In this document: positions 3,521 through 64,000 of the stretch, one piece after another
How positions within the stretch are numbered: the first letter of the stretch is position 1
Layout of the letters: the number at the start of each line of letters is the position of its first letter
DNA from: Mobula hypostoma
Lineage: Eukaryota
DNA length: 64,000 bases
NCBI RefSeq assembly: GCF_963921235.1
Contig: NC_086097.1
Span: 15,748,001-15,812,000 of the forward strand
Reading direction: 5' to 3'
Translations under genes and position numbers: made by a program
The notes under the pieces: generated by a model
The model's database searches: none
What the model saw: the letters and a program-made list of their open reading frames with translations, nothing else
Told to the model about the DNA's origin: nothing

Positions 3521-3706
3521 AATAAACTGTCAACATTTTGGGCTGAGACCCTTCTTCAGGTCCTATTGTAGCACACACAAAATTCTGAAGAAAATCAGCA
3601 GGTCAGCGGGTCAGACAGCATCTATGGAAATGAATGAACAGCTGAAGTTTCAGGCCGAGATTCTTCATCAGAACCTGAAGAAGGGTCTCCGCCCAAAATG
3701 TCAACT
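3521..3706. mobile_element. Penelope-like 3'-end (pLTR) fragments with degenerate hammerhead motifs
   Basis: Three motifs related to 61883-61918: ~3527-3562 (-), ~3640-3674 (-), ~3673-3706 (+). Confidence 0.7.
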
Positions 3707-3730: not shown

Positions 3731-4086
3731 GGGAGGTAGTGTTCGTAGACCGTTAAAAAATATGATAGCAGAGGTGAAGAAGCTACTCCTAAAATGTGGA
3801 GGCTACCTCTTCAGGCTCCTGTGGTCCTCCCTGATGGTAGTAACGGAAGAGGGCATGTCCCGGATAGTGACCATCCTTAATAATGGATGCCACCTTCTTG
3901 GGGCACCACCTTTTGAAGATGTCCTCGATGGTGGAGGTGGTTATGCCTGTGATAGAACCAGCTGAGTTTGTGACCCCCAGCAGCCTCTTTCAATCCTGCA
4001 CGTTGGAGCCTTCGTACCAGCTCCCGGTCAGAATGCTCTCACCACACACCTGTAGGAATTTGCCGGAGTCTTTGATGCCATTGTGA
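3731..4086 (-). mobile_element. Rex1/Babar LINE fragment
   Basis: Reverse strand resembles the Rex/Babar C-terminal region (...KGGIHY*GWSLSGT, homologous to ASIIKDPHHPGH in other copies). Confidence 0.65.
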
Positions 4087-4176
4087 ACCAAATAAGCATG
4101 GACTTCTCTGTTGCGGCTACAATGAGAGGAATTCATTGTAAAATCCATTAATTATTGTATTCTCCCTGTGTTACAG

Positions 4177-4372
4177 TCGGTGCATGTGCCATGGAGACAA
4201 CCCTGGATGCACAGATCAGCCATTCACCATTCTGTACAAATACATGGACATGGTGTCGGGAAGGAGCGTCCCCTCAGATGTCTTCCAGATGCAGGCCACA
4301 GCCCGCTATCCCGGAGCATACTACATCTTCCAGATCAAATCCGGGAATGAAGGCAGAGAGTTCTACATGAGG
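4177..4372 (+). CDS. FBLN5: Fibulin-5, penultimate coding exon (end of EGF and start of fibulin C-terminal domain)
   Basis: Acceptor tctccctgtgttacag ends at 4176; donor AGG|gtaagc at 4373. AA+T completes Asn in phase. Translation RCMCHGDNPGCTDQPFTILYKYMDMVSGRSVPSDVFQMQATARYPGAYYIFQIKSGNEGREFYMR is diagnostic of FBLN5. Confidence 0.97.
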
Positions 4373-4974
4373 GTAAGCGGTGGCTTCTGTCATTACACTG
4401 AACAACGCTACTACTGATCCAGAATGAAAATGGGAACTTTTTACTAGTAATAAAATTCTGTAGCAAACACAGCTAGCCTAACCCCTCCACAACACCATCC
4501 CCCCACCTTAAATTTGAATCAAAATATATTTTACACCAACTTTATTACCCAGTCTTCTTTAAACTCTTTAAAGGCGGGTTCTTTGGCACTCTGTGAGTTC
4601 ACATGCCTATAACTACTGATGAAACTCAAAGCCAGGAGACACAAAAAAGTTGGAAATCAAACTACCCCTTTATTCAGTAAAAACACGCAACTACAAAATC
4701 TGAAACTCAAAGCTCAACTGTACATCCCAAAGCATGACTGTTTAAATGGTTTACCAAAGAACACTCAAGAGGTTGATTGGAATAATGACCAATCCGTGAA
4801 AGTCAGCTTGGAATTAGTTGTCTGCTGACCAATAGGCATTGGTTGTTTTGGCTCACCATAACACCGTCTGGTGTCTCCAGCTGAAAGTGGTCACTTCAGG
4901 CATCGTTCCTTCATCATAGCCACTTCTCCACCCTCTGAACCCACTTACACTTCATCCAGACGGATGACTGTAGT

Positions 4975-5470
4975 CATTGCTGAGGCCATACTTGGAGCAG
5001 TTTTTACACATTTGGTCACCCTGATATACGAAAGACATTGTCAGGCTGGAGAAGGCACAGAAGACACTTACAAGGATGCTGTCTAGAGTATAGGGCCTGA
5101 GTTATAGGGAAGGGTTGGCTACGCTGGATCTTTATTCCCTGGAATGCAGGAGAATAAGAGGAGAACTCAGAGATTTATATAATCATGAGGGATATGAATT
5201 TGATGGGTGGTCAGTCTTTTCTCCAGGGCTAAGGATTAAAAAACTAGAGGGGCACAGATACAGGATAAAAGAGATGAGATTAAAGAGCGGTAACTGGTTT
5301 TCATAGAAGGTAGTGAGTACCTGGAATGAGCTGCCAGTACAAGTGGTCTTGACGAGTTCAATGCCATATTTAAGACGCATTTGGATAGGTACATGGAGTG
5401 GAGGAGCTTGGAGGATTATGGGTCAATGGTGGTCAATTGTGGTTGGCATGGACCAGTTGGTCTTAAAGAA
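4975..5470 (+). mobile_element. CR1 LINE 3' fragment
   Basis: LDLYSLECRRIRGEL and STWNELP motifs, then the CR1 3' UTR running into the minisatellite. Confidence 0.8.
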
Positions 5471-5880
5471 ATCTAGCAGGGATGATGTTGGGGTTGGTAT
5501 GGACCAGTTGGGCTGAAAGTGAACTAGCAGGGATGATGTTGGGGTTGGTATGGACCAGGTGGTCTGAGAGAGGACTAGCAGGGTTGATGTTGGGGTTGGC
5601 ATGGACCAGATGGTCTGAAAGAGGACTAGCAGGAAGATGATGGGGTTGGTATGGACCAATTGGTCTGAAAGAGATCTAGCAGGGTTGATGTTGGGGTTGG
5701 CATGGACCAGATGGTCTGAAAGAGGACTAGCAGGGACGATGTTGGGGTTGGCATGGACCAGTTGGTCTGAAAGAGATCTAGCAGGGATGATGTTGGGGTT
5801 GGTATAGACCAGTTGGTCTGAAAGAGATCTAGCAGGGATGATGTTGGGGTTAGCATGGACCAGATAGGTTGAAAAGCCTG
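5440..5880 (+). repeat. Minisatellite, ~8 copies of a 51-52 bp unit
   Basis: Unit gatgatgttggggttgg(c/t)atggaccag(t/a)tggtctgaaagagatctagcagg; successive starts at 5481, 5532, ~5583 and onward. Confidence 0.95.
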
Positions 5881-6289
5881 TCTTACTTCCTCCTGATTCA
5901 GGGTACACCTTGCACAAATCCAAATAATGATGCCAGCCTTCCAGAAACTTCCTGGTGTATCTCAGAATCAGTCAGAATTGGAAGACAGCGAAAAACCGAG
6001 AGAGAAAATACTTGCAGGTTCTGATTGCAGAGGACTCTTGCGGTCCAAGTGCATAGCTGACTGAAAGTGGCGGCAGAATTCAATCCGGTGGTTAGGACAG
6101 CGTATGACATGATTGCCATTATTGGGCAATGCCCTGAGTCAAAAAGAAACATATGCACAATAATGAGAAACAATGAGAGAACAGTTTGCCTGAAGTTGAA
6201 TAATTTGACATTAGTTCCTGAGGGTCATAAAGCAGCAATTCACTTGCACTTGTTCCTGCCTAGTCTACTGCACTGGCATTCACAACATC

Positions 6290-6690
6290 GCCTCAGAAGA
6301 TAAGGAGTTGTTCCTCTAGATTTTGTTGAGCAACAGTAGGGGCCCCAGACAGGCAATTTGTGACAGGAGTGGGATTGAGGATTAAAGTGGCTTGCTGCAG
6401 GAAGATCAGGGGTTTCCCCTGTGGGCAGAGCCTGTATTTTGTTTCTCCAGTGTAGAGACCACATTGTGAACACCAAATGCAGTGGATGAGATTCGATGAA
6501 GTTCAGGGGAATCGCTGCTTTGTCTGAAATGAATGTTTGAGTGCCTGGATGGCGGGAAGGACAGAGGTGATTGAACAGGTCCGGCCTCAACTTTGGTTGC
6601 ATGGGAAGCTGCCATGACACTTGCTTCTTCCAATTTAGTCCACTGCATTCAGTGTCCGCAAGGGCTGCATTCTTCCAGCATTTTCAGGTT
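6290..6690. mobile_element. Old Penelope-like GIY-YIG fragments in inverted arrangement
   Basis: Minus strand DLPAASHFNPQSHS (cf. DLPVATHFNSTSHSH at 61400). Plus strand SSNLVHCIQCPQ (cf. STGVIYCVRCSR). Confidence 0.6.
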
Positions 6691-6760
6691 TCCATGTAGT
6701 CTGAATGGTTTGTTAATATCATTACTAAATAAGATTTTCGCTTTCTTCACAAACCTGCAG

Positions 6761-6922
6761 CAAACTGGGCCCGTCAGTGCTACAGTGGTGATGACCCGTC
6801 CAATTAGAGGGCCTCGAGACATTGTGTTGGACCTGGAGATGGTCACCGTGAACACCGTCATCAACTTTCGCGGGAGTTCAGTAATCAGACTGACAATCTT
6901 TATATCTGAATACACGTTTTAA
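6761..6922 (+). CDS. FBLN5: Fibulin-5, last coding exon to stop codon
   Basis: Acceptor ctttcttcacaaacctgcag ends at 6760, phase 0. QTGPVSATVVMTRPIRGPRDIVLDLEMVTVNTVINFRGSSVIRLTIFISEYTF* matches the FBLN5 C-terminus. Confidence 0.97.
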   Translation, partial: QTGPVSATVVMTRPIRGPRDIVLDLEMVTVNTVINFRGSSVIRLTIFISEYTF

Positions 6923-7175
6923 AGCCGTTGGGTTTCCCAGGGCTAGAGGTTCTACATCTATGTTTTATTGAGTGAATGTGTCACTGTTGTTGCTAAGGCA
7001 GAAAGCTGCTTTCGATAATACATTGTAACTGTATAGATTCTTAATTCTGTCTGCTTTTCTCCCCTGGCTGGGTCAGAGTTATTGTACAGCTACCCATGAA
7101 TAGAAATGCGATGCCTTCAAGCAGCAGTATATTCAGGAAGGCATTGTGATGTCCTTAGCCCTTGTTTATCCATTA

Positions 7176-7315
7176 GGATGTAAGACATAGGAGCAGAATT
7201 AGATCTTTCGGCCTAGTGAGTCTGCTCCAACATTTGATCGTGGCTGATTTATCTGCCCTCTCATCCCCATTCTCCTGTCTTCCCCCCATGACCTTTGGCA
7301 CCCTTATGTCAATCA
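7176..7315 (-). mobile_element. CR1 3' UTR fragment
   Basis: aagacataggagcagaattag...catccccattctcctgtcttcccc is shared with CR1 ends at 10470 and 18790. Confidence 0.7.
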
Positions 7316-7621
7316 AGGATGACAACAGTATATAAAAGGCTAGAGAGAATTGTCAAGAGCAATTTTTATAATATATACGTATTTGAGTTTTGTGAAATAG
7401 TTGGCATAATTAAGGCTAATTTTATGATCCGTCAGTCACTACAGTGAGAACTAGTTGGCCCTCTCCCTGATTGTTGCAATTCCGAAAACAAAAGAGCAAA
7501 TCTCAATGGCATTAGTTAGGTAATCCCAGGACTTCGCCCAGGTAGAAATGAAATAACAAAAACCTAATACTCTGCGACGTGGCAGACAACAATCTCATGA
7601 GCAGCGCAAGTGTGACCTGCA

Positions 7622-7797
7622 AGCTCAATTTCAACATTTAAGAGAAGTTTGGATAGGTACATAGATGATAGGGATATGGAGGGCTCTGGTCTCAGTGTAG
7701 GTCAGTGGGATTAGGCAGTTTAAATGGTTCAGTATGCACCAGATGGGCCAAGTGGCCTGTTTCTGTGCTGTACTTTTCTATGACTCTGTGACTCTAT
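7622..7797 (+). mobile_element. CR1 3' end fragment
   Basis: acatttaagagaagtttggataggtac...gggccaagtggcctgtttctgtgctgta...(tgactcta)n tail. Confidence 0.7.
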
Positions 7798-9299
7798 GGC
7801 ATTGACACCCCTATCCTTGTTAGTGGTAAATGCTGTAGGGGTTGAGATGTGCCCTTAAGGGTCCAAGTCCAAGTCTTTGGACTGAGAAGAGCACAAAATC
7901 ATTACCTAACTTTTGTGACAGATGATATCCTCACTATCATTGTCCGCACAACACTGAACAATCTCCATACCCACACCTACATGATTAATCATTAGTTACA
8001 CCCTTCAGGTTGAATAGAGTTTTGATAAATTATGAACTTTGTTGTATATAGAAGAATTATGGTTCCACAAGCAGCCTGGTATAGTGTGTTATACTCTGAG
8101 ATCATTACGAGCATTATAACAGGGGTTACCCATTATTAAGGACATTGTAGTTCGAAGAAGACAGTACAAAGTCCCAGGGGAGAATTTTTTTTCTTATCTT
8201 GTATTTCACATTTTGTGAAGGAGAAGTGGAAGTGGAGTTAACAAATATTAAATCAAAAAGAAAGATAAGACCCTGGATAAGAAAGAGGAAGGGAATTAGT
8301 GGGCTTGCTCCTTCAGTCACCCAGAACAGTCGCAGAGTTCATAAACAAGAAGCTGGAAAATCCAGAGTAACACACACACAATGCAGGAGGAACTCGCCAA
8401 GTCAGGGAGCATCTGTGGAATTAAATAAAGAGTCAGCGCTTCGGGCTGGGGCCCGAAGAAATGTCAACTTTTTATTTTATTCCTTTCCATAGAAGCTGCT
8501 CAGCCACTGAGCCACAGTGTACTACAGTGTAGAGGGAGGGTGAATCAATATCTACATACCAAGATCAGTCCCTGAATAACACAAAGATTCATGTATTTGT
8601 CCTGCAGCTCAAAACTCTGGAATCTGACATCTGCAGTTAATAAATGCCCAACACAATGCTGTCAGGCATAATATCACAAAAGGTTTCAGATGCCTCAGTC
8701 ACCGTGAGACATTGATCATCTCATCTGCATTACTTCAAATCTGCGCTCTTTGCCTTCAGATATTTTCCTTTTGTTCAAAGCAACGGGTATCTATATTAAT
8801 CACAGAAACCTGGAGCCACCCTGTAAAATCCTAAACAAGCATGGTGACTCATAAAGAGCTTAATGGCAGACTATTATATTGCCACCCATATTACACGTTG
8901 CTTCAGGCAGTAACAAGTGGCCTGATTCTGCAGCAGATAAAACACTGAAGTCATGGAACGACGTTGGTTAATTAATTTCACCCAACTAACAATACATCCT
9001 TATTGTCTCAAGTATGTCACCATTTTGTAAAGCAAACTCTTCTATAGTTCTTCCTAGCATCTGCTATCTTCCTAACTTGGTTCTCAATTTGTGATGTTGT
9101 AACAACAACAATAACTTGACCTAATGTCCCACCTCTAATGTAGTGAAATGTTCCAGGACGCTGAACAGAATTGTTGCCGAGTGAGGTTATTTGACAGCGA
9201 AATGAGGGCGGATAGTGAAAGGCTCAATCAAAAGGGTAGCTTGGTCAGACCTTTTAAAGGAGCTGAGCGAGGCAAGTAGTTAGAGGTCCTTAAGACCCT

Positions 9300-17170: not shown

Positions 17171-17330
17171 CAAACAAGAGAAAATCTGCTGATGCTGGAA
17201 ATCCAAGCAACACTCACAAAATACTGGAGGAACTCAGCAGGCCAGGCAGCATCTATGGGAAGGAGTAAACAGTCGACATTTTGGGCACAGATGCTGCTGA
17301 GTTCCTCCAGCATTTTGTGTGTGTTGCTTA
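17171..17330. mobile_element. Penelope-derived short hairpin element with 11-bp TSD
   Basis: Perfect TSD aaaatcaatca (17160-17170 and 17331-17341). Arms aagcaacactcacaaaatactggaggaactcagcag and ctgctgagttcctccagcattttgtgtgtgttgctt. Confidence 0.8.
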
Positions 17331-25709: not shown

Positions 25710-25749
25710 ACAGTCCTGATGAAGGGTCTCGGCCCGAAACATCGACTGT
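25710..25749 (+). ncRNA. Minimal type-I hammerhead ribozyme motif in a Penelope-like fragment
   Basis: ACAGUC-CUGAUGA-AGGG UCUCGG CCC-GAAAC-AUC-GACUGU. Core intact; AUC instead of GUC, probably CpG decay. Confidence 0.6.
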
Positions 25750-25811
25750 ACTTCTTCCTAGAGATGTTGCCTGGCCTGCCGCGTTCATCAGTAACTTTTA
25801 TGTGTGTGGCA

Positions 25812-35264: not shown

Positions 35265-36260
35265 ACATAGAACCATAGAAACTACAGCACAGAAACAGGC
35301 CTTTTGGCCCTTCTTGGCTGTGCCAAACCATTTTCTGCCTAGTCCCGCTGACCTGCACACGGACCATATCCCTCCATACACCTCCCATCCATGTATCTGT
35401 CCAATTTAATTTTAAATGTTAAAAAAGAACCCGCATTTACCACCTCGTCTGGCAGCTCATTCCATACTCACACCACTCTTTGTGTGAAGAAGCCCCTAAT
35501 GTTCCCTTTAAACATTTCCCCCCTCACCCTTAACCCATGTCCTCTGTTTTTTTTTTTCACCTTGCCTCAGTGGAAAAAGCCTGCTTGCATTCACTCTATC
35601 TATACCCATCATAATTTTATATACCTCTGTCAAATCTCCCCTCATTCTTCTACGATCCAGGGAATAAAGTCCTAACCTATTCAACCTTTCTCTGTAACTG
35701 AATTTCTCAAGTCCTGGCAACATCTTTGCAAACCTTCTCAGCACTCTTTCAACCTTATTTATATCCTTCCTGTAATTTGGTGACCAAAACTGAACACAAT
35801 ACTCCAGATTCGGCCTCACCAATGCCTTATACAACCTCATCATAACATTTCAGCTCTTATACTCAATACTTTGATTAATAAAGGCTAATGTACCAAAAGC
35901 TTTCTTTACGACCCTATCTACCTGTGACGCTACTTTTAGGGAATTTTCTATCCGTATTCCCAGATCCCTCTGTTCCACTGCACTCCTCAGTGCCTTACCA
36001 TTAACCCTGTATGTTCTACCTTGGTTTGTCCTTCCAATGTGCAATACCTCACACTTGTCTGCATTAAACTCCATCTGCCATTTTTCAGCCCATTTTTCTA
36101 GCTGGTCCAAGTCCCTCTGCAGGCTCTGAAAACCTTCCTTGCTGTCTACTACACCTCCAATCTTTGTATCATCAGCAAATTTGCTGATCCAATTTACCAC
36201 ATTATCATCCAGATCATTGATATAGATGATAAATAACAATGGACCCAGCACTGATCCTGC
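35265..36260 (-). mobile_element. CR1 LINE RT-to-3' fragment (young)
   Basis: GSVLGPLLFIIYINDLD...SKFADDTKIGG; LYKALVRPNLEYCVQFWSP; one frameshift near 35845. Confidence 0.95.
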
Positions 36261-36261
36261 A

Positions 36262-37445
36262 TTATTTCCACTAATCAATGCGCTCTAAGTCCTCGGCCTC
36301 AATACCATCCCGTGCAACTGGATCCTCACTTGGAGACCCAGTCAGTTTGGATTGGTAATAACATCTCCTCCACAATCGCCATCAGCGGAGATGCACCACA
36401 AGGCTGTGTGATTAGCCTCCTGCCCTACTCACTTTATACTTATGATTATGTGGCCAAGTGCAGCTCCAATGCTATATTCAAGTTTGCTGATGACACCACT
36501 GTTAGTGGCTGAATCAGAGGTGGTGACGAATCAGCATTTAGAAGGGAGATTGAAAATCTGGCTGAATGGTGCCACAGCAATAACCTCTCACTCAATGTTT
36601 GCAAAACCAAAGAGCTGATTATCGGCTACAAGAGGAGGAATATAGAGGTCCATCAGCCAGTCCTCATGAGGGGATCAGAGGAGTAGTGGGTCAGCAACTT
36701 TAAATTCCTTGTTGTTATCATATCAGAGTATCTCTCCTGGATCTCGCACATCAGTGCCTTTACAAAGAAGGCATGGCAGCTCTTCCACTTCTTTAGAAGT
36801 TTTCACTGAATCAGCAAGTCATCTAAAACTTGGACAAATGTCTATAGATGCCTGGTGGAGAGCGAAGTGACCGGTTGCAGCCCGACCTGGTATGGGTACA
36901 CCTGTGCCCTTTAGTGGGAAAACCTACAAGTATTGGATACAGCCCCATCCATTACAGTAAAGCCCTCCCTACCAATGAACACATCTACATGGAATACTGT
37001 TGCAGGAAGTCAACATCCATCATCAAGGACACCCACCATCCAGGCCATGCTCTCTTCTCACTGCTGCTGTCAGGAAGAAGGTACAGGAGCCTCAGGACCC
37101 ACACCACCAGGTTCAGGAACAGTTATTGCCCCTCAACCATCAGGCTCTTGAACCAGAGGGGATAACTTCAGTCACCCCAACACTGAGCTGATACATTAAC
37201 CCATAGACTCACCTTTAGGAACTCTACAACTTATGTTCTTGATATTTATTGCTTATTTATTACTATTATTCTCTTGTGCTTGCATTGTTTGTTGTCTTTT
37301 GCACATTGGTTGATGTGTATCCTGTTTTTCACTGATTCGATTGTTTCTTGTATTTAATATGAATGCCCACAAGATAATTAATCTCAGGGTAGTATATGGT
37401 GGCATATATATACTTTGATAATAAATTTACTTTGATCTTTGAAGC
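36262..37445 (+). mobile_element. Rex1/Babar RT-to-3' fragment
   Basis: GDAPQGCVISLLPYSLYTYD...KFADDTTV; TSIIKDTHHPGHALFSLLLSGRRYRSLRTHTTRFRNS. Confidence 0.9.
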
Positions 37446-39604: not shown

Positions 39605-40347
39605 CGAGGGGTGATTGATAAGTTCGTGGCCTAAGAAAACCTAGCACATTTATTTTTCAACATTGTCCCCTCCTACATTTACACACTTAGTCCAGCAGCC
39701 ATGCTTGACCTCCAGAAAGCATCCACAGCAGGGGTGATTGATAAGTTCGTGGCCTCGGGTAGAAAGAGATGAGTTAGGGCAACACTTTCAGTACGCTGAA
39801 TGAACTCAGCAGGTCAAACAGCATCAGTTAGAAACGATGAGTCGATGTTTCGGGCCGGAATCCTTCATCAGGACTGAAGAATGAAAGATCAGGAAGGATT
39901 TGAAGAATGCTTGTAGCTTCAGTTGAAAGACCAAAGAAGAGAGTTATACAGCTCTCGTTACATGCACATGTAGGTCAACTCTTTGAGTGATTATGCAGAA
40001 AGTTTAAAGTTGATAACTCATCAGTTAATAACTCATCGGGGTGATTGATAAGTTTGTGGCCTAAGGTTGAAGGCGATGAGTTATTAACTTCAGACTTTCT
40101 GCATAACCACTCAAGGAGTTGACCTGCAGGTACATGTAATTAGAGCTCTATAATTCATCTCCTTCTACTGTAGGCCACAAACTTATCAATCACCCATCTG
40201 TGGACACTTTCTGGAGGTCGAAGATCCGTATGCTCCACGACCGCTGGACTAAGTGTGTAAATGTAGGAGGGGATTATACTGAAAAATAACTGTGCCAGGT
40301 TTTTGACTCCTTTTACCTCAGACCACAAACATATCAATCACCCCTCG
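39605..40347. mobile_element. Mariner-type foldback MITE inside a minus-strand V-SINE (~39430-40445)
   Basis: TA at 39603-39604 and 40348-40349; TIR cgaggggtgattgataagtt / aacatatcaatcacccctcg. A Penelope fragment is nested at ~39777-39935. Confidence 0.85.
39840..39875 (-). ncRNA. Minimal hammerhead ribozyme motif in a Penelope-like fragment
   Basis: Reverse strand AGUC-CUGAUGA-AGGAUUCCGGCCC-GAAAC-AUC-GACU. Confidence 0.55.
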
Positions 40348-40621: not shown

Positions 40622-40770
40622 CCTTTTTTTCTCCAGTCCTACTGAAGGGTCTCGGCCCAACATGTCGACTGTACTTTTTTCCATAGATGCTGCCCGGCCC
40701 GCTGAGATCCTCCAGCATTCTGTGTGTGTTGCTTGGATTTCCAGCATCTGCAGATTTTCTCTCGTTTGTG
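40622..40770 (+). mobile_element. Penelope-like 3' end with mutated hammerhead core
   Basis: cagtcctactgaagggtctcggcccaacatgtcgactg...ccagcatctgcagattttctc. Confidence 0.7.
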
Positions 40771-46860: not shown

Positions 46861-48031
46861 TAGAAAAGATAGAGAAATTGAAGCAAAGAGGTCTAGCGGT
46901 AGAATCGGGTGTACTGTTTGTTGCTAGTCATGAAGTCAAATTGGGTCCTCCATTTAATGAGGCAGATGTTGATAAATACTTCCAGCATTTTGAAAAGGTT
47001 GTTCAGAGTTCACAGTGACCGAAAAGGGGCTGGCTCCTGCTCAGGCAAAAGTTCAGGCAATTTTGGAGGTTCCCAGTCCAACTGGAAAAAAAGATCTCAG
47101 ATGATTCTTGGGAATGGTAGTTCTGTAAGAACTTTTCTGAGTTTGCCCTTCCATTAATTAACCTCCTGAAGAAAGGTGCGAAGTTTGTTTGGAAAGAGCC
47201 TTGTCAGGAGGCCTTTGATAAGTTGAAAGCTATCCTATGTCACCACCCTGTGCTCAGGTCACCTGACTTTGCAAAGCCATTTTCCCTAGCTGTAGCTGCC
47301 AGTGATGAGGCTGCAGGAGCAGTGTTACTCCAAAGAGATAATTATGATGATGTTGACCATCCTGTGGCTTACTTTTCCAAGAAATTTAATGGGCATCAAA
47401 GAAATTATTCAACCATAGAAATTGAATTATTATCCCTTATTTTAGCTCTGCAACATTTTGATGAGTATGTTGGTGCGACTCAGAAACCACTTGTGGTTTA
47501 CACCGATTATAACCCATTGGTATTTTTGAGTAAACTGAAAAACAAAAATAGAAGGTTGCTAAATTCGAGTTTGATTTTACAAGAATATGATCTCTCAATA
47601 ACTCAAAATAAAGGCAAAGATAATGTAATTGCCGACTTTCTGTCAGGTGTTGAACTTGCAATGTAATTTTTTTTATGGAGTGGAATTTTGATATTGGTAT
47701 ACACTCCTGCCATATGTTATATTAGTACTGTATGATAACTGTATGTATATTGTGCATTTTGTAAACTTTATACATTTGCATATTTTGTAAATTGTTGTTA
47801 AAATTTTGTTCTTAATAGATCAAAATTTTCTTTTCTTGGGGGAAGGTGTTACCTGTCCCGTGAGTATCTCGTGAGCATATCTTGTGATATTGGCATGATG
47901 TAAGTGTTGTGATAGTGGGGTGATGTGATATCACGTGATGGCATGTTCCAACCGGTATAAAAGGGGAGAGCGCAGTTTGTTGTGTAGTTGTTTTGTTGGG
48001 GAGTCACAGTCGGTGGTTACGTAATCAAAGA

Positions 48032-55176: not shown

Positions 55177-57828
55177 CATAAGAACATTGGAAATAGGAGC
55201 AGGAGTAGGCCATCTGGCCCATCGAGCCTGCCCTGCCATTCAATAAGATCATGGCTGATCTGTCCGTAAACTCAGCTCCATCTACCTGCCTTTTCCCCAT
55301 AACCCTTAATTCCCTTACTATGTAAAAAACTATCTAACTGTATCTTAAATATATTTAATGAAGAAGCCTCAACTGCCTCCCTGGGCAGAGAATTCCACAG
55401 ATTCACCACTCTCTGGGAAAAACAGTTCCTCCTCATCTCCATTCTAAATCTTCTCCCCTAAATCTTGAAGCAATGTCCCTTAGCTCTAGTCACACCTACC
55501 AATAGAAACAACTTTCCTACTTCTATCTTATCTATCCCTTTCAAAATTTTGCATGTTTCTATAAGATCCCCTCTCATTCTTCTGAATGCCAGAGAATATA
55601 GTCCTAGGCGACTTAATCTCTCCCATAGGTTAAACCCTTCATCCCTAGAATCAACCTGGTGAACCTCCTCTGCACTGCCTCCAAAGCCAGTATATCCTTC
55701 CTCAAGTATGGAGACCAGAACTGCACACAGTACTCCAGGAGCGGCCTCACCAGTACCCTGTACAGTTGCAGCATGACCCCTCTGCTCTTGAATTCAATCC
55801 CTCTAGCAATGAAGGCCAACATTCCGTTTGCCTTCTTAAAAACCTGTTGTACCTGCAAGCCAACTTTTTGCAATTCATGAACAAGCACTCCCAAGTCCCT
55901 CTGCATAACAGCATGCTGCAATCTTTCACCATTTAAATAATAATCTGCTCTTCTATTATTCCTTCCAAAGTGGATGATCTTGCATTGTATTCCATCTGCC
56001 AGACCTTGGCCCACTCACTTAACTTATCTATATCCCTCTGCAGACTCTCCACATCCTCTGTACAATTTGCTTTTCCACAAAGTTTAGTGTCATCAGCAAA
56101 TTTTCTACGCTACACTCAGTCCCCTCTTCCATATCATCAATGTAAATGGTAAACAGCTGTGGGCCCAGCACCGACCCCTGCGGCACCCCACTCACCACTG
56201 ACTGCCAACCGGAGAAACACCCATTTATACCAACTCTCTGCCTTCTATCGGTTAACCAGTCCACTATCCATGCCAATACACTTCCTCCGACTCCATGCAT
56301 CCGTATCTTATTTATAAGTCTCTTGTGAGGCACCTTATCGAACGACTTCTGGAAATCCAAGTATACAACACCCACCTGTTCCCCTCCATCCACTGCACTC
56401 ATTATGTCCGCAAAGAACTCCAGTAAGTTTGTCAAACAGGACCTGCCCTTTCTGAATCCATGCTGCATCTGTCCAATGGAACCACTCCTTTCTAAATGTT
56501 TCACTATTTCTTCCTTAAAGATAGTTTCAAGCATTTTCCCGACTACAGATGCTAAACTAATTGGCCTATAGTTGCCCGTCTTTTGCCCACATCCTTTTTT
56601 AAAAAGTGGCGTGACATTTGTTGTCTTCCAGTCCGCCAGGACCTGCCCAGAGTCTAGAGAGTTTTGATAAATGATTACCAATGCGTCTACTATAACCTCC
56701 ACCAATTCCCTCAACACCCTGGGATGCATCCCATCAGGACCAGGGGACTTATCTACCTTCAGGGCCTCTAGTTTGCTCATCACTATCTCTTTACTGACAG
56801 TGATTTTTTTTTGGCATGTGCCTGCGTGCGTGTGAGTCTGTGCGTGCACATATGCATGTGTGTGTGCACATCTGCGTGCATGTGAGTCTGTGTGTGCACA
56901 TCTGCGTGTGTGTGCGTGCGTCTGTGATGGTCTTTTTCATGGCCCTTTTACAAAGCGCGGAGCGAGAGAGAGAGAGACTGCATGGCGCGCCACTCCTCAC
57001 ACAGCCATTTTGCAGTATGTTTCCCTTTATTTTACAATGTCGAGTTGCGATCTTGACACTCAATCCGGCACGGATGGAAAGCATACTTGGGAGTGGACCT
57101 GACTGGTTTAGAACCTGGGAACCTCCACTCCCGGGTACGACACTGATGTCATTGCGCCACCAGCTGGCCCTAGCGACAGTAATTTTACCGAGGTCCTCAC
57201 TTCCCATTTCATCCATAACATCCTTCTTTGGCATATTAGACAGGCTTCCACCATGAAGACCGACACAAAATAGTCGTTCAATGCCTCAGCCATTTCTTTA
57301 TCACCCAATATCAATTTCCCCTTCTAGTCTTCCAAAGGACCTATGTTGACTTTAGCCACCCTCTTCCACTTTATATATTTATAAAAACTTTTGCTAATTT
57401 TGTATTAATATTTTTATATTTTGTGCTAATTTACTTCCATACTCTATCTTCCTTTTCCTTATATGTGGTTTAGTTGTTCTCTGTTGCTTTTTAAAGTTTT
57501 CCCAATCCTCCAGTCTCCCAATACTCTTTGCGACTTTGTACACATGAGCTTTTCATTTTAATACTGTATTTTATTTCCTTAGTCACCCAAGGCTGGCTCA
57601 CCCCACACTTACTGTCCTTACTTTTGACTGGAATATACTTTTGTTGAGCACTGTGAAAAATCTCTTTGAGAGTATTCCACTGTTCCTCAACTGTCCTACC
57701 AAATAGCCTGTGCTCCCAATCCACATTAGCCAACTCTTCTCTCATCCCGTTGTATCCTTGTTCAAGCATAACACACTAGTTTTAGATTTAACTATTTCAT
57801 CCTCCATCTGAATGCGAAATTCAATCAT
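55177..57828 (-). mobile_element. CR1 LINE ORF2 (young) with a nested SINE
   Basis: 273-aa [16 protein letters not shown]...[14 protein letters not shown]...[14 protein letters not shown] accaa at 55172-55176 and 57829-57833. Confidence 0.95.
56808..57170 (-). mobile_element. tRNA-derived SINE with CA-rich 3' region and poly(A)
   Basis: Minus strand A-box tggcgcaatg, B-box-like ggttctaaacc, poly(A) end; TSD tactgacagtgatttt / tagcgacagtaatttt (13/16). Confidence 0.75.
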
Positions 57829-58766: not shown

Positions 58767-60120
58767 CACTTACTGTAATTCAGGGTTTTCTTCTATATTT
58801 ATCATATATTGCAACGTGCTGCTGCCACAAAGCTAACAAGTTTCACAATATACGCTGGTGATATTAAACCTGGTTCTGGTTCTGAAATTTCACCTTTTTT
58901 TTTGGAATTGCTTATACTTGTTATTGCAATTCCTAATTCAAGTCAGTTAAAATGCTGCCCACAATGTAAGCTGAAAAGTTTTCTATCTCGTCCAGACATG
59001 CTTTGGGTTGCCAGCATGACCCACAACAATGGTGCGTTTTTATTGATTCTTCAGTGTTAAGTCTGAAAGCTGTGCCGCCACACAACGGCTGTGCCCACCC
59101 TTCAGTACCAATTGGCTGTGCAGTACACGTGAAAGAAAACTATGGAAGTTTAGAGGTGTTGTTGAAACACATACAGTACAGCAATTACAACCGGAATATC
59201 TGTGGTGATCTGAAAGTAGTCGCACTGCTACCAGGAGTGCTGCTCCGATACACCAAGTACTGTTGTTTCATTTGCAAATGGGACAGCCATGCTAAAAAAT
59301 CTCATTACATTAAAAAGGATTGGCCACTCCATAAGCAGTTGGTTCCAGGGCAGAAAAGTATGGCACATAAGCCACTTGTACACTCAAAAGAGATATTTTT
59401 GCCTCCTCTTCATATAAAACTGGGGCTTATGAAAAAATTTGTGAAAGAGCACTGAACAAGGAAAGTAAAGAATTTCGGTATCTGAGACTAATATTTCCCA
59501 GAATAAGTAATGCCAAGATTAAGGAAGGAATTTTTATTGGTCCACGAATCAAACAGGTAAACAATGACAGGCAATTTGAAGAAATTCTAGCAAGACCTTC
59601 TCATGGAAGGCCTTTAATAAAATTGTAGAAAATTGTCTTGGGAACTACAGAGCACCAAATTACATGCAGATGGTTGACAACATGCTTCAAGCATACAAAA
59701 CCATAAATTGCAACATGTCACTAAAGATTCATTTTCTGCATTCCCATTTCGACTTCTTCCCTGCAAATCTTGGCGCTGTCACACGCATGATGAAGGTCTT
59801 CACCAGGACATTGTGGTCATGGAGAAATGGTATCAGGGCAACTGGAATCCATCAATGCTGGCTGATTATTGTTGGGCACTTCAGCGAGAAGCCTCAGACA
59901 TTGAATACAAACAAAAATCAACAACAAAACATTTCAGCTTAGTTTAATTATTGCAAAGCATCTGCACCGTTATACAATTAAACACATCATATTCAATAAA
60001 AGTTAATTTCTTATTTCTTGAAATTGCCACATGATACAAGTAGCCTGAAATATATATGCAACATACATCAAAGTTGCTGGTGAACGCAGCAGGCCAAGCA
60101 GCATCTATAGGAAGAGGCGC

Positions 60121-60156
60121 AGTCGACGTTTCAGGCCGAGACCCTTCGTCAGGACT
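60121..60156 (-). ncRNA. Minimal type-I hammerhead ribozyme, mirror copy in the inverted arm
   Basis: Exact reverse complement of 61883-61918. Confidence 0.8.
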
Positions 60157-61882
60157 AACTGAAGGAAGAGTGAGTAAGGGATTTGAAAGCTGGAGGGGGA
60201 GGGGGAGATGCAAAATGATAGGAGAAGACAGGAGGGGGAGGGATGGAGCCGAGAGCTGGACAGGTGATTGGCAAAAGGGATACGAGAGGATCATGGGACA
60301 GGAGGTCCAGGAAGAAAGACGGGGGGTGGGTGGGGTGACCCAGAGGATGGGCAAGAGGTATATTCAGAGGACAGAGGGAGAAAAAGGAGAGTGAGAGAAA
60401 GAATGTGTGCATAAAAATGAGTAACAGATGGGGTACGAGGGGGAGGTGGGGCCTTAGCGGAAGTTAGAGAAGTCGATGTTCATGCCATCAGGTTGGAGGC
60501 TACCCAGACGGAATATAAGGTGTTGTTCCTCCAACCTGAGTGTGGCTTCATCTTTACAGTAGAGGAGGCCATGGATAGACATGTCAGAATGGGAATGGGA
60601 TGTGGAATTAAAATGTGTGGCCACTGGGAGATCCTGCTTTCTCTGGCGGACAGAGCGTAGATGTTCAGCAAAGCGGTCTCCCAGTCTGCGTCGGGTCTCA
60701 CCAATATATAAAAGGCCACATCGGGAGCACCGGACGCAGTATATCACCCCAGTCGACTCACAGGTGAAGTGATGCCTCACCTGGAAGGACTGTTTGGGGC
60801 CCTGAATGGTGGTAAGGGAGGAAGTGTAAGGGCATGTGTAGCACTTGTTCCGCTTACACGGATAAGTGCCAGGAGGGAGATCAGTGGGGAGGGATGGGGG
60901 GGACGAATGGACAAGGGAGTTGTGTAGGGAGCGATCCCTGCGGAATGCAGAGAGAGGGGGGGAGGGAAAGATGTGCTTAGTGGTGGGATCCCGTTGGAGG
61001 TGCCGGGTCCAACATATTATTCTCCGTAACTTCCGCCACCTCCAACGGGATTCCACCACTAAGCACATCTTTCCCTCCCCCCCTCTCTCTGCATTCCGCA
61101 GGGATCGCTCCCTACACAACTCCCTTGTCCATTCGTCCCCCCCATCCCTCCCCACTGATCTCCCTCCTGGCACTTATCCGTGTAAGCGGAACAAGTGCTA
61201 CACATGCCCTTACACTTCCTCCCTTACCACCATTCAGGGCCCCAAACAGTCCTTCCAGGTGAGGCATCACTTCACCTGTGAGTCGACTGGGGTGATATAC
61301 TGCGTCCGGTGCTCCCGATGTGGCCTTTTATATATTGGTGAGACCCGACGCAGACTGGGAGACCGCTTTGCTGAACATCTACGCTCTGTCCGCCAGAGAA
61401 AGCAGGATCTCCCAGTGGCCACACATTTTAATTCCACATCTCATTCCCATTCTGACATGTCTATCCACGGCCTCCTCTACTGTAAAGATGAAGCCACACT
61501 CAGGTTGGAGGAACAACACCTTATATTCCGTCTGGGTAGCCTCCAACCTGATGGCATGAACATCGACTTCTCTAACTTCCGCTAAGGCCCCACCTCCCCC
61601 TCGTACCCCATCTGTTACTCATTTTTATGCACACATTCTTTCTCTCACTCTCCTTTTTCTCCCTCTGTCCCTCTGAATATACCTCTTGCCCATCCTCTGG
61701 GTCACCCCACCCCCCCCCGTCTTTCTTCCTGGACCTCCTGTCCCATGATCCTCTCGTATCCCTTTTGCCAATCACCTGTCCAGCTCTCGGCTCCATCCCT
61801 CCCCCTCCTGTCTTCTCCTATCATTTTGCATCTCCCCCTCCCCCTCCAGCTTTCAAATCCCTTACTCACTCTTCCTTCAGTT

Positions 61883-61918
61883 AGTCCTGACGAAGGGTCT
61901 CGGCCTGAAACGTCGACT
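61883..61918 (+). ncRNA. Minimal type-I hammerhead ribozyme (Penelope pLTR)
   Basis: AGUC-CUGACGA-AGG GUCUCGG CCU-GAAAC-GUC-GACU: full catalytic core, stem I AGUC/GACU, predicted cleavage 3' of 61914. Confidence 0.8.
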
Positions 61919-62359
61919 GCGCCTCTTCCTATAGATGCTGCTTGGCCTGCTGCGTTCACCAGCAACTTTGATGTATGTTGCTTGAATTTCCAGCATCTGC
62001 AGAATTCCTGTTGTTTGCGTTGAAATATATATGCGTTCAGCTTCAAGCAGTCTATCATAATCACAAAAGAATTCTGAAGAAGTAACACATTTGAAAAAAA
62101 TTGCTGACCAGTAAATTCGATTGAAAGGAGAAGAAATAGAACTCCAATAACCTGGCATCTGATTGTTCAGAAATCCTGATAGTCCAGCATCTGGCTCACT
62201 CATTTGTGTCAGGAGTCCAGAGAGAAATCAGGGTATTGCAGAATTTGTTGTCTTTTGGACATTGTTGTTTGTGTGTTTTTTTAAATTGATTTTATTGGTG
62301 TTTCTTTGTATCTAAGGATTCAAGATTCAAGATTGTTTAATGCCATTTCTAGTACACGA

Positions 62360-63760
62360 TTTGTAACATAAAATGAACTGTGGCACTGACACCAATTATC
62401 ATGAAGTGCTATGAACAGTTGTTAAAGGCACACATCAAAAACTCCATTCCTGTCACGTTGGACACTCACCAATATGCTTTCTGACAGGACCTCTCTACGA
62501 CAGATGTTATAGCATCTATCATGCACCCTGACATGCCTAGGAAACACAGACACTTATGTCAGAACGCTGTTTCTTGATTTCAGTTTGGTATTCAATCCTT
62601 TTGTCCCACAGACCTCGCTGAACGAACTCCTACTCCTCGGTCTAATTACATGTCTGTACAACTGTGTACTGGACTTCCTAACCAACAGATCTCAAATAAT
62701 CAGAATGCACAACGGTTCCTCCCGCCCCATCATCCTCAACATGGGAGTCCCCTAAAGGTGGGTGCTGAGCCCTTTGCTCTACACTCTGTTCACACATGAC
62801 TGCCCAGCCAAACACCCGAGTAATTGCATGGTCAAGTTCACCGATGACATGACAGGGGTGGGGCTCATCATCAACAAAGATGAGACATCCTACAGAGAGG
62901 AAGTGTAAAAGCTCGAGGCCTGGTGCCTGGCAAATAAACTCTTCCGTAATGTCAACAAGACAATGGAGATGGTTATCAACTTCAGGAGAACTCACACCGT
63001 GTACACTTCATGATCGATGGCACAGCAGAGGAAAATGTGAACAGTTTTAGACTCCTGGGAGTGCACATCTCACACAACCACTCATGGTTTCAGAAAACAT
63101 CCTACACAATCAAGAAGGCTCACCAACACCTCTACTTTCTGAAGAGGCTGAGGGGAGCTGCACTCTGCACGTCCATACTCAGGACCTTCTACAGGTGCTC
63201 AGTAGACAGCGTCCTAACAAGTTGCATCACTGCATAGTGTGGAAACTGCACTGTGGCGGACTGGAAGGCTCTACAATGTGTAGTTAAAACTACCAAGTGT
63301 GTCATTGGCATCAGCCCTCAAGGACGTATATGCAGAAAGGAGCGGGAAAAGGGCCCATAACATCATGAAAGATCCCTCCCACCCTGCTCATGGACTGCTT
63401 GCCCCACTCCCATTACATAGCAGCCACACAGGCCCACAAGATTCAGAAGCGGTTACTTTCTCCAAGCAGTAAGGCTGATCAACACCTCCACCCTTCTACA
63501 CCCCTAACCACCACTACTTTATTACCTCCTGTCAGTTACCTTATGCAGAGGCACTCCTGCACCGAGTGTCACTTTACAGACATACAATCAACCTTTGTAT
63601 ATAAGTTATCTTATGAATATATATTTATAGTACTTTTATTATTGTGTTCTTTATTTTATTATGTTTATTTTGTGTTGCATCAGATCTAAGTAATAATTAT
63701 TTCATTTTATGTTATAATTATGTACTGGAAATGACATTACACAATCTTGAATCTTGAATT
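62360..63760 (+). mobile_element. Rex1/Babar RT-to-3' fragment
   Basis: TYVRTLFLDFS, GVP*RWVLSPLLYTLFTHDC, KFTDD, KKAHQHLYFLKRL; tail (aatcttg)n. Confidence 0.88.
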
Positions 63761-64000
63761 CTTAAATACAAAGAAACACGATAGAATCAATGAAAAAAAA
63801 CACTTAAGACAACACGGACAAACAGACAGTGTCCAAAAGACAACAAATTGTGCAAATACAAAAGAAAAACAAAATAACAATAATAATAGGTTAATAAGTA
63901 AATACTAATACATGAGTTGCAGAAGTTTGAAAATGAGTCCATAGGTTGTGAGAACAGTTCAGTGTTGGAGTGAGTGAAGTTATTCCACTGGTACAGGAGC
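63761..64000 (-). mobile_element. Rex1/Babar-type 3' region (continues beyond window)
   Basis: aaaagacaacaaattgtgcaaatac...gagtccataggttgtg matches 30220-30390. Confidence 0.7.

What the first reader, a model, noticed from the sequence alone, without database searches (positions are those of the whole stretch)
60121..61918. Mirror-image pair of intact minimal hammerhead ribozymes, one per strand, in a young Penelope palindrome
Seen: 61883-61918 reads AGUC|CUGACGA|AGG-GUCUCGG-CCU|GAAAC|GUC|GACU. This is the full hammerhead core with stem I, a 3-bp stem II, a GUC cleavage triplet and a loop-less palindromic stem III (ACGU). The identical motif sits on the minus strand at 60121-60156. Established: Penelope-like elements carry such minimal type-I hammerheads, which are thought to cleave as dimers through the palindromic stem III. 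Inference: a read-through transcript from either direction carries one ribozyme near its 3' end plus its antisense ~1.8 kb upstream. Self-cleavage would then compete with a ~945-bp duplex, a possible auto-silencing or RNA-processing switch.
Basis: partly seen in the sequence, partly recalled or inferred. Interest (0 to 1): 0.72.

Follow-up and report, generated by a model that had tools for sequence, protein, structure and literature searches.

The report
Ordinary Penelope palindrome with two hammerheads
The two mirror-image ribozyme motifs are the two ends of one recent head-to-head insertion of a very common Penelope-like jumping gene, a layout repeated at many other places in this genome, so they are likely a by-product of how the element inserts and not a silencing switch.

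Summary
Observation confirmed: identical 36-nt minimal hammerhead motifs at 61883-61918 (+) and 60121-60156 (-). They lie near the outer ends of a 1,961-bp head-to-head Penelope-like insertion (60060-62020) with a 14-bp target duplication and a one-sided 39-bp tail. The motif has 32,886 exact copies in the genome. In two samples, 36 of 100 matches and 14 of 84 insertions are mirror pairs, so the layout is routine. Opposite-strand hammerhead pairs and inverted copies are in print (PMC4209133, PMC8557442). Stem II is likely misdrawn: bulged A plus four pairs. The switch is not supported. The mirror partner is antisense and cannot supply the dimer, the duplex is far stronger than the ribozyme stems, and a cut would trim only about 67 bp. 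Side result: copies rarely begin at the predicted cut (at most 3.7% lost there), but about 29% are lost at the motif's front edge, against 6-10% in CpG-free control steps. This likely marks where the copied RNA begins. The scan found this pile-up before, in this genome and others. No cleavage or expression was shown here.

The parts
60046..60059 (.). left copy of the 14-bp target-site duplication (its last 2 nt also match the left arm end)
   Evidence: 10 of 11 paralogues of the host repeat show left and right flanks contiguous with one such stretch
60060..61002 (-). left arm: 5'-truncated PLE copy (endonuclease end, 3' UTR/pLTR), ending without the tail
60121..60156 (-). minimal type-I hammerhead motif of the left arm; predicted cut 60125/60124
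60454..61002 (-). truncated reading frame of the left arm (linker and GIY-YIG endonuclease part, no RT)
61003..61006 (.). head-to-head junction; short self-complementary microhomology shared by both arms
   Evidence: upstream continuation of the element seen in L011; junction reading is inference
61003..62020 (+). right arm: 5'-truncated PLE copy, including the 26-nt unpaired spacer 61007-61032 and the tail
61007..61585 (+). truncated reading frame: C-x4-C-x2-C linker and GIY-YIG endonuclease (PF01541, 23.4 bits, cut-off 22.6), no RT
61863..61884 (+). branch-point-like word, pyrimidine tract and two AG dinucleotides just before stem I (splice-acceptor look-alike, splicing not shown); mirrored at 60155-60176 (-)
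61868..61898 (+). predicted upstream hairpin that pairs with the CUGA core (inner pairs 0.87-0.93 probability)
61879..61885 (+). front edge of the hammerhead, where 5' ends of other genomic copies pile up
61883..61918 (+). minimal type-I hammerhead motif of the right arm; predicted cut 61914/61915
61982..62020 (+). 39-bp tail present on one arm only
62021..62034 (.). right copy of the target-site duplication
58970..60059 (+). decayed older repeat with transposase-like frames, split by the insertion; it resumes at 62021 to about 62125
   Evidence: no Pfam hit

Best explanation
This is one recent head-to-head insertion of two 5'-truncated copies of a high-copy Penelope-like retrotransposon, each carrying the family's minimal hammerhead in its end repeat, and it likely formed when both strands of one staggered DNA cut primed reverse transcription of uncut element RNA, so the mirror pair is likely a passive by-product without a locus-specific role. 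Shown: arms, single target duplication, one-sided tail, high frequency of the layout, complementary use of two 3' end sites, shared variants between arms, and no pile-up of copies at the predicted cut. Inferred: the two 3' end sites are the two reverse-transcription start sites described in vitro for an anole element; the two cDNAs were joined head to head by a short microhomology; the ribozyme, if active at all, would act as a protein-assisted dimer on tandem RNA from source copies, not on this palindrome.
For: 32,886 exact motif copies, reversed control 0. 18 minus/plus neighbour pairs within 5 kb among the first 100 exact 74-nt matches, none plus/minus. 29 of 84 sampled insertions are head-to-head (14 more could not be assessed), 14 of 84 hold the whole core on both arms, and 26 of 29 pair one short end with one tailed end. 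Arms agree at 158 of 188 polymorphic sites against 53% for random pairs; this locus 10 of 10 (49 pairs, two counted twice, sites linked). 14-bp duplication and empty-site paralogues. Only 3.7% of 19,004 copies lose the 7 nt before the cut. In 12 of 29 loci picked by an N-terminal probe, such an arm runs straight into the ORF; the ATG lies 138 nt past the cut in L039. Literature: PMC4209133 (opposite-strand pairs, dimer need, low activity), PMC11167929 (both strands cut and extended, two start sites, ribozyme not needed for insertion), PMC8557442 and PMC3846280 (inverted copy, tail, TSD).
Against: Twin priming is not shown for this family. PMC3846280 reads such palindromes as self-priming on an antisense template. 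Some pairs disagree at many polymorphic sites (L142 4 of 10, L174 0 of 2, L154 0 of 2), so not all come from one RNA, and gene conversion between arms could also raise agreement. Samples come from the first 45 Mb of one contig. A dsRNA effect of such palindromes in bulk is not excluded. Rfam has no hit.
Confidence: 0.85

Rival explanations
1. One reading: a read-through RNA chooses between self-cleavage and a ~945-bp duplex and so tunes silencing of the family.
For: Both motifs match the majority family sequence, and the arms are 99% complementary, so a read-through RNA would form long dsRNA. PLE-derived small RNAs are reported in a rotifer (PMC3846280, passages).
Against: The partner motif is antisense, so no dimer can form in cis. 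Duplex energy exceeds ribozyme stem energy about 40-fold for the central 241 nt alone, and in native flanks stem I has pair probability 0.001. A cut removes about 67 bp of duplex. The layout is generic. Monomers were inactive in vitro (PMC4209133).
Confidence: 0.04
2. The palindromes arise by fold-back: one cDNA (or an antisense template) self-primes at the truncation point and copies itself; the hammerheads are again passengers.
For: Arms share variants; short microhomology at the centre; proposed in PMC3846280 (passages).
Against: A fold-back copy should run to the primed end, yet 26 of 29 second arms stop at the other preferred end site, which is also used by solo copies. Some arm pairs differ at family-polymorphic sites.
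Confidence: 0.12
3. The motif in this youngest subfamily is no longer an active ribozyme; it is kept as a protein-binding, promoter or splice signal in the end repeat.
For: The stem II closing pair is G-U here but G-C in older copies. The core is predicted to be sequestered by an upstream hairpin. No footprint at the cut. Downstream sequence is nearly as conserved as the core (0.80 vs 0.875).
Against: All core positions, the bulged A and the palindromic ACGU are kept. A related PLE hammerhead cleaves when the element's protein is present (PMC11167929). This rival is compatible with the best explanation and concerns activity only.
Confidence: 0.3

Closest known systems
Minimal hammerheads of metazoan Penelope-like elements (Cervera and de la Pena 2014, PMC4209133; read parts 1-2 of 4: abstract, results, discussion, start of methods)
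   Same: [quoted passage not shown]
   Different: Stem II is shorter (4 bp against 7-8 bp in Schistosoma) and closes with G-U in the youngest subfamily; copy number is higher (32,886 exact against about 4,000-9,000 reported for coelacanth and frog); the pair here is 1.76 kb apart (100-700 bp reported).
EN+ PLE insertions with inverted 5'-truncated copy, 30-40 bp tail and TSD (Craig 2021 PMC8557442, Arkhipova 2013 PMC3846280, Schostak 2008 PMC2377424; passages only)
   Same: Head-to-head inverted copy, tail on one side, one TSD around the whole unit, partial tandems forming pLTRs in source copies.
   Different: Here both arms are truncated inside the ORF and no RT is left.
Poseidon element of the green anole studied in vitro (Frangieh 2024, PMC11167929; read parts 1-2 of 4: main text, start of methods)
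   Same: Two preferred 3' ends separated by the tail; insertion from uncut RNA; AT-rich target.
   Different: There the ORF starts inside the hammerhead; here the ATG is 138 nt past the cut and the protein has the Cys linker of Neptune/Nematis type.
Non-LTR retrozymes (bioRxiv 10.64898/2026.07.22.740005; part 1 of 5 and passages)
   Same: Hammerhead-bearing sequence derived from PLE end repeats.
   Different: Retrozymes are direct tandem arrays; this is an inverted pair with no same-sense partner.

Membership tests
EN+ Penelope-like element | C-terminal GIY-YIG endonuclease | tested here: met
   PF01541 23.4 bits, cut-off 22.6
EN+ Penelope-like element | RT in the same ORF upstream of the endonuclease | tested here: met
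   Absent from this truncated locus. In other copies a frame with the RT YIDD motif runs on into the GIY-YIG domain (L017); RVT_1 E=2.4e-5, below cut-off, in L011
EN+ Penelope-like element | pLTR from partial tandems, inverted 5'-truncated copy, optional 30-40 bp tail | tested here: met
EN+ Penelope-like element | RT groups with telomerase-like PLE RTs in a tree | not tested
   no reference set fetched
Neptune/Nematis clades | CX2-5CxxC zinc-finger linker between RT and endonuclease | tested here: met
   C-x4-C-x2-C in the arm frame; definition from PMC8557442
Neptune/Nematis clades | placement in the RT tree | not tested
   clade name rests on the linker only
PLE minimal type-I hammerhead | CUGANGA, GAAA and NUH core with stems I and II | tested here: met
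   82% of cells paired, slid controls 6-47%; covariation no better than shuffles (126 of 500)
PLE minimal type-I hammerhead | extra nucleotide between 9 and 10.1, G10.1-C11.1 pair, palindromic 15.2-16.2 | tested here: inconclusive
   Extra A and palindrome met; closing pair is G-U here, G-C in 11 of 28 relatives and in 5,931 exact copies
PLE minimal type-I hammerhead | self-cleavage as a dimer | not testable with these tools
   needs in vitro assay; no genomic footprint at the cut
Rfam hammerhead families | covariance-model match | tested here: not met
   PMC4209133 needed a relaxed descriptor for this class, so the miss is expected (inference)
Non-LTR retrozyme | direct tandem units each with a hammerhead | tested here: not met
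   the two motifs are inverted

The most novel reading that the evidence does not exclude
The genome records how this element's RNA is built: a major RNA species begins at the first base or two of hammerhead stem I and is copied uncut. Starting there removes the upstream strand that otherwise pairs with the core, so the start (or a splice/cut at the acceptor-like signal there) would be the on-switch of the ribozyme. Copying from the two start sites to this 5' end yields 100-140 bp strong-stop-like stubs and, when both target strands are primed, head-to-head palindromes.
Probability: 0.4. Interest if true: 0.55.

Novelty: new member of a known kind. Interest (0 to 1): 0.25.

Why it matters
The locus itself is ordinary. 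The family is useful: tens of thousands of young copies give an in vivo record of an insertion mechanism still known mostly from one in vitro study. They show that inserted RNA is almost never cut at the hammerhead, that the two arms use the two 3' end sites in complementary fashion, and that 5' ends cluster at the ribozyme's front edge. That gives a direct test of the open question of what PLE hammerheads do: map RNA 5' ends at 61883-61884 and assay cleavage with and without the upstream strand. Over a thousand near-perfect palindromes are also a likely bulk source of dsRNA wherever host transcripts read through them.

Tried and rejected
Rfam scans: no hammerhead hit; only hairpin-shaped miRNA models below cut-off on the palindrome centre, which are artefacts of the perfect fold-back. 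RNA evidence: no RNA holder listed on record; all 24 runs are contigs. Laying four runs on a tandem copy showed no GT-AG joint among the 15 best joints (144 not shown) and cannot show ends. No listed contig bridged the left junction of this locus in four runs. None of this counts for or against expression. A DNA search with the 96 nt after the motif returned nothing because common words are skipped. Cleavage-site footprint: rejected. Second pile-up at the branch-like site: at most weak, 10.3% against 6.2-8.5%, 7 of 59 arms in the sample. A spliced short first exon before the motif: no shared upstream sequence in the short copies. A different subfamily as cause of the front-edge drop: rejected for the loci read, since upstream sequences are target duplications or inverted arms; 3 of its 35 rows were long copies with point changes. 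Host gene: of 16 long frames scanned, 3 gave Pfam hits: two RT/RNase H fragments and one ALKBH8_N match like that of the LINE remnant at 62950; no host exon was identified, and short exons would be missed. The dimer-cleavage paper of Lunse et al. is not held; I saw it only as cited in PMC6765202. No earlier notes near this place. Supplements of the papers were not read and may hold cartilaginous-fish examples or end maps.

Full report
Observation. The 36-nt motif is at 61883-61918 (+) and, letter for letter, at 60121-60156 (-). A loose core pattern has five matches in the window against 0.37 expected; the other three (3647, 25716, 39847) are older relatives. The arms 60058-61006 and 61033-61981 differ at six places in about 950 columns. 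Rfam has no hammerhead hit at either threshold.

Anatomy. The insertion runs from 60060 to 62020 and is flanked by one perfect 14-bp duplication (60046-60059, 62021-62034). It split an older repeat: 10 of 11 paralogues of that repeat show the two flanks contiguous. Each arm is a 5'-truncated copy read outward from the centre: the end of the ORF with a C-x4-C-x2-C linker and a GIY-YIG domain (23.4 bits, cut-off 22.6), then the 3' UTR with the hammerhead. The right arm carries a 39-bp tail that the left arm lacks. The 26-nt spacer is ordinary element sequence of the right arm, and the arms meet at a 4-nt self-complementary word. Other copies hold the RT. In 12 of 29 loci picked by an N-terminal probe an arm like this one runs directly into the next ORF; the ATG lies 138 nt after the predicted cut in L039. 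So the hammerhead sits in the pLTR, as reported for PLEs.

How common. The genome (3.48 Gb) holds 32,886 exact copies of the motif; the reversed control has none. Among the first 100 of 7,201 exact matches to a 74-nt stretch, 18 neighbour pairs within 5 kb are minus/plus, as here, 2 are minus/minus and none plus/minus; scaled up, that is roughly 1,300 mirror pairs (extrapolation from one contig). A sample anchored downstream of the motif (99 of the first 100 of 20,257 matches) gave 84 insertions: 29 head-to-head, 14 not assessable because the arm was longer than my query, and 14 with the whole core on both arms. In 26 of 29 pairs one arm ends near window 61978-61990 and the other at the tail end near 62013-62020. 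Arms agree at 158 of 188 family-polymorphic sites against 53% for random pairs, this locus at 10 of 10, but a few pairs disagree strongly (two pairs counted twice, sites linked).

The ribozyme. In 39 of 54 older relatives anchored outside the core (15 dropped because the alignment did not reach the core's front, which favours conservation), the majority letter holds 0.875 of core positions without CpG, 0.86 of stem I, 0.83 of stem II, against 0.65 upstream, 0.67 in the linker, 0.80 downstream and 0.73 in the tail. It matches the published consensus of an extra nucleotide and a G10.1-C11.1 pair. In native flanks the active fold is not predicted: stem I pairs have probability 0.001 and an upstream hairpin holds the CUGA at 0.87-0.93.

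The switch. It needs a read-through RNA, for which I have no evidence either way. RNA started in the pLTR would run outward and hold one motif only (inference from PMC2377424). In a read-through RNA the other motif is antisense and cannot complete stem III. The central 241 nt fold at -239 kcal/mol, against about -6 for stems I and II and -1.7 for the dimer helix. The duplex would start to form before the distal motif is made (inference), and a cut would remove about 67 of about 945 bp. Monomers were inactive and dimers weak in vitro; the anole ribozyme needed the element's protein and was not needed for insertion. I rate the switch at 0.04.

Side result. Nested exact counts moving upstream in 7-nt steps gave 17,399, 15,921, 13,150, 9,299, 8,553, 7,676 and 7,201 copies: losses of 8.5%, 17.4% (step with a CpG), 29.3%, 8.0%, 10.3% and 6.2%. 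The 29.3% step is 61879-61885, the front edge of stem I, and has no CpG. Across the predicted cut only 3.7% of 19,004 are lost (CpG changes allowed there, so not strictly the same measure). In the sample 14 of 76 arms at risk start in the edge bin and 3 of 92 in the bin after the cut. Reading 30 loci, chosen because they match the motif but not the 7 nt before it, showed independent junctions: 16 of 20 rows labelled solo have an 8-15 nt direct repeat, two of them one duplicated locus, and starts fall mostly on 61883-61884. So templates are copied uncut or rejoined, and many end at the motif's first bases. A transcription start is the simplest cause; a cut in the hairpin loop, a product of the acceptor-like signal, or a stall at bound protein are not excluded. 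The upstream signal looks like an intron end (branch-like word, pyrimidines, AG; a perfect branch consensus in 3 of 30 older copies; the consensus itself is recalled), and the Drosophila virilis intron is reported to end at the front of helix I. I measured this before consulting earlier notes; the scan had already noted the same pile-up in this genome and others, while two notes report starts at the cut in other families.

Comparison with what is known. Opposite-strand hammerhead pairs are stated in PMC4209133. Inverted truncated copies, tails and TSDs are standard for EN+ PLEs. Two RT start sites and priming from both strands were shown in vitro. The linker points to the Neptune/Nematis type; no tree was built. 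My searches found no paper on the front-edge pile-up or on this family's hammerhead, but most subscription papers and all supplements were unseen.

Verdict. Real, young and ordinary: a new member of a known kind. Interest 0.25, most of it from the family-wide end statistics rather than from this locus.

Noticed in passing
L011:1925-5180 (G000:C1:519500-527500): Near-complete copy with an internal inversion: one arm starts at the inner end site and stops inside the ORF; the other has the tail joined by a 3-nt microhomology directly to that same internal point and continues upstream. It looks like L1-type twin priming on one RNA with a jump over the first cDNA.
   Followed up: partly
window 61863-61884 and 61920-61934: Two splice-acceptor look-alikes flank the hammerhead: one before stem I, one after it (pyrimidine tract, AG, then ATG), both kept as pyrimidine tracts in older subfamilies. 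Strong donor look-alikes lie in the endonuclease region near 61182, 61260 and 61277.
   Followed up: partly
window 61912-61917: The predicted cut lies at the centre of a 6-nt palindrome, giving a second possible intermolecular helix of -10.3 kcal/mol that competes with the ACGU dimer helix.
   Followed up: no
window 3647-3671 (-), 25712-25810 (+), 39847-39871 (-), 40635-40741 (+), 17198-17262 (-): Five older short remnants of related PLE end repeats; the one at about 3600-3700 is itself a small head-to-head palindrome.
   Followed up: partly
window 58970-60059 and 62021-62125: Decayed repeat with transposase-like frames (about 1,470 candidates in the genome); it resembles Zator-type DNA transposons from recall only, no Pfam hit.
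   Followed up: partly
window 62298-63855: LINE-like RT remnant (62513-63470) framed by short inverted repeats I3 and I5.
   Followed up: no
window 47121-47666 and 35850-36284: RT-associated RNase H fragment (likely LTR retrotransposon) and an RT fragment.
   Followed up: no
L039:961: In contigs of related organisms several joints lead into the first base of the motif, as expected if the same front-edge truncation occurs there.
   Followed up: no
L232 and L233 (G000:C1:13257150-13261900): Two identical short insertions with identical flanks 4 kb apart: a local duplication after insertion, or an assembly artefact.
   Followed up: no
window 56800-56930: Imperfect 10/20-nt TG-rich tandem repeat.
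   Followed up: no
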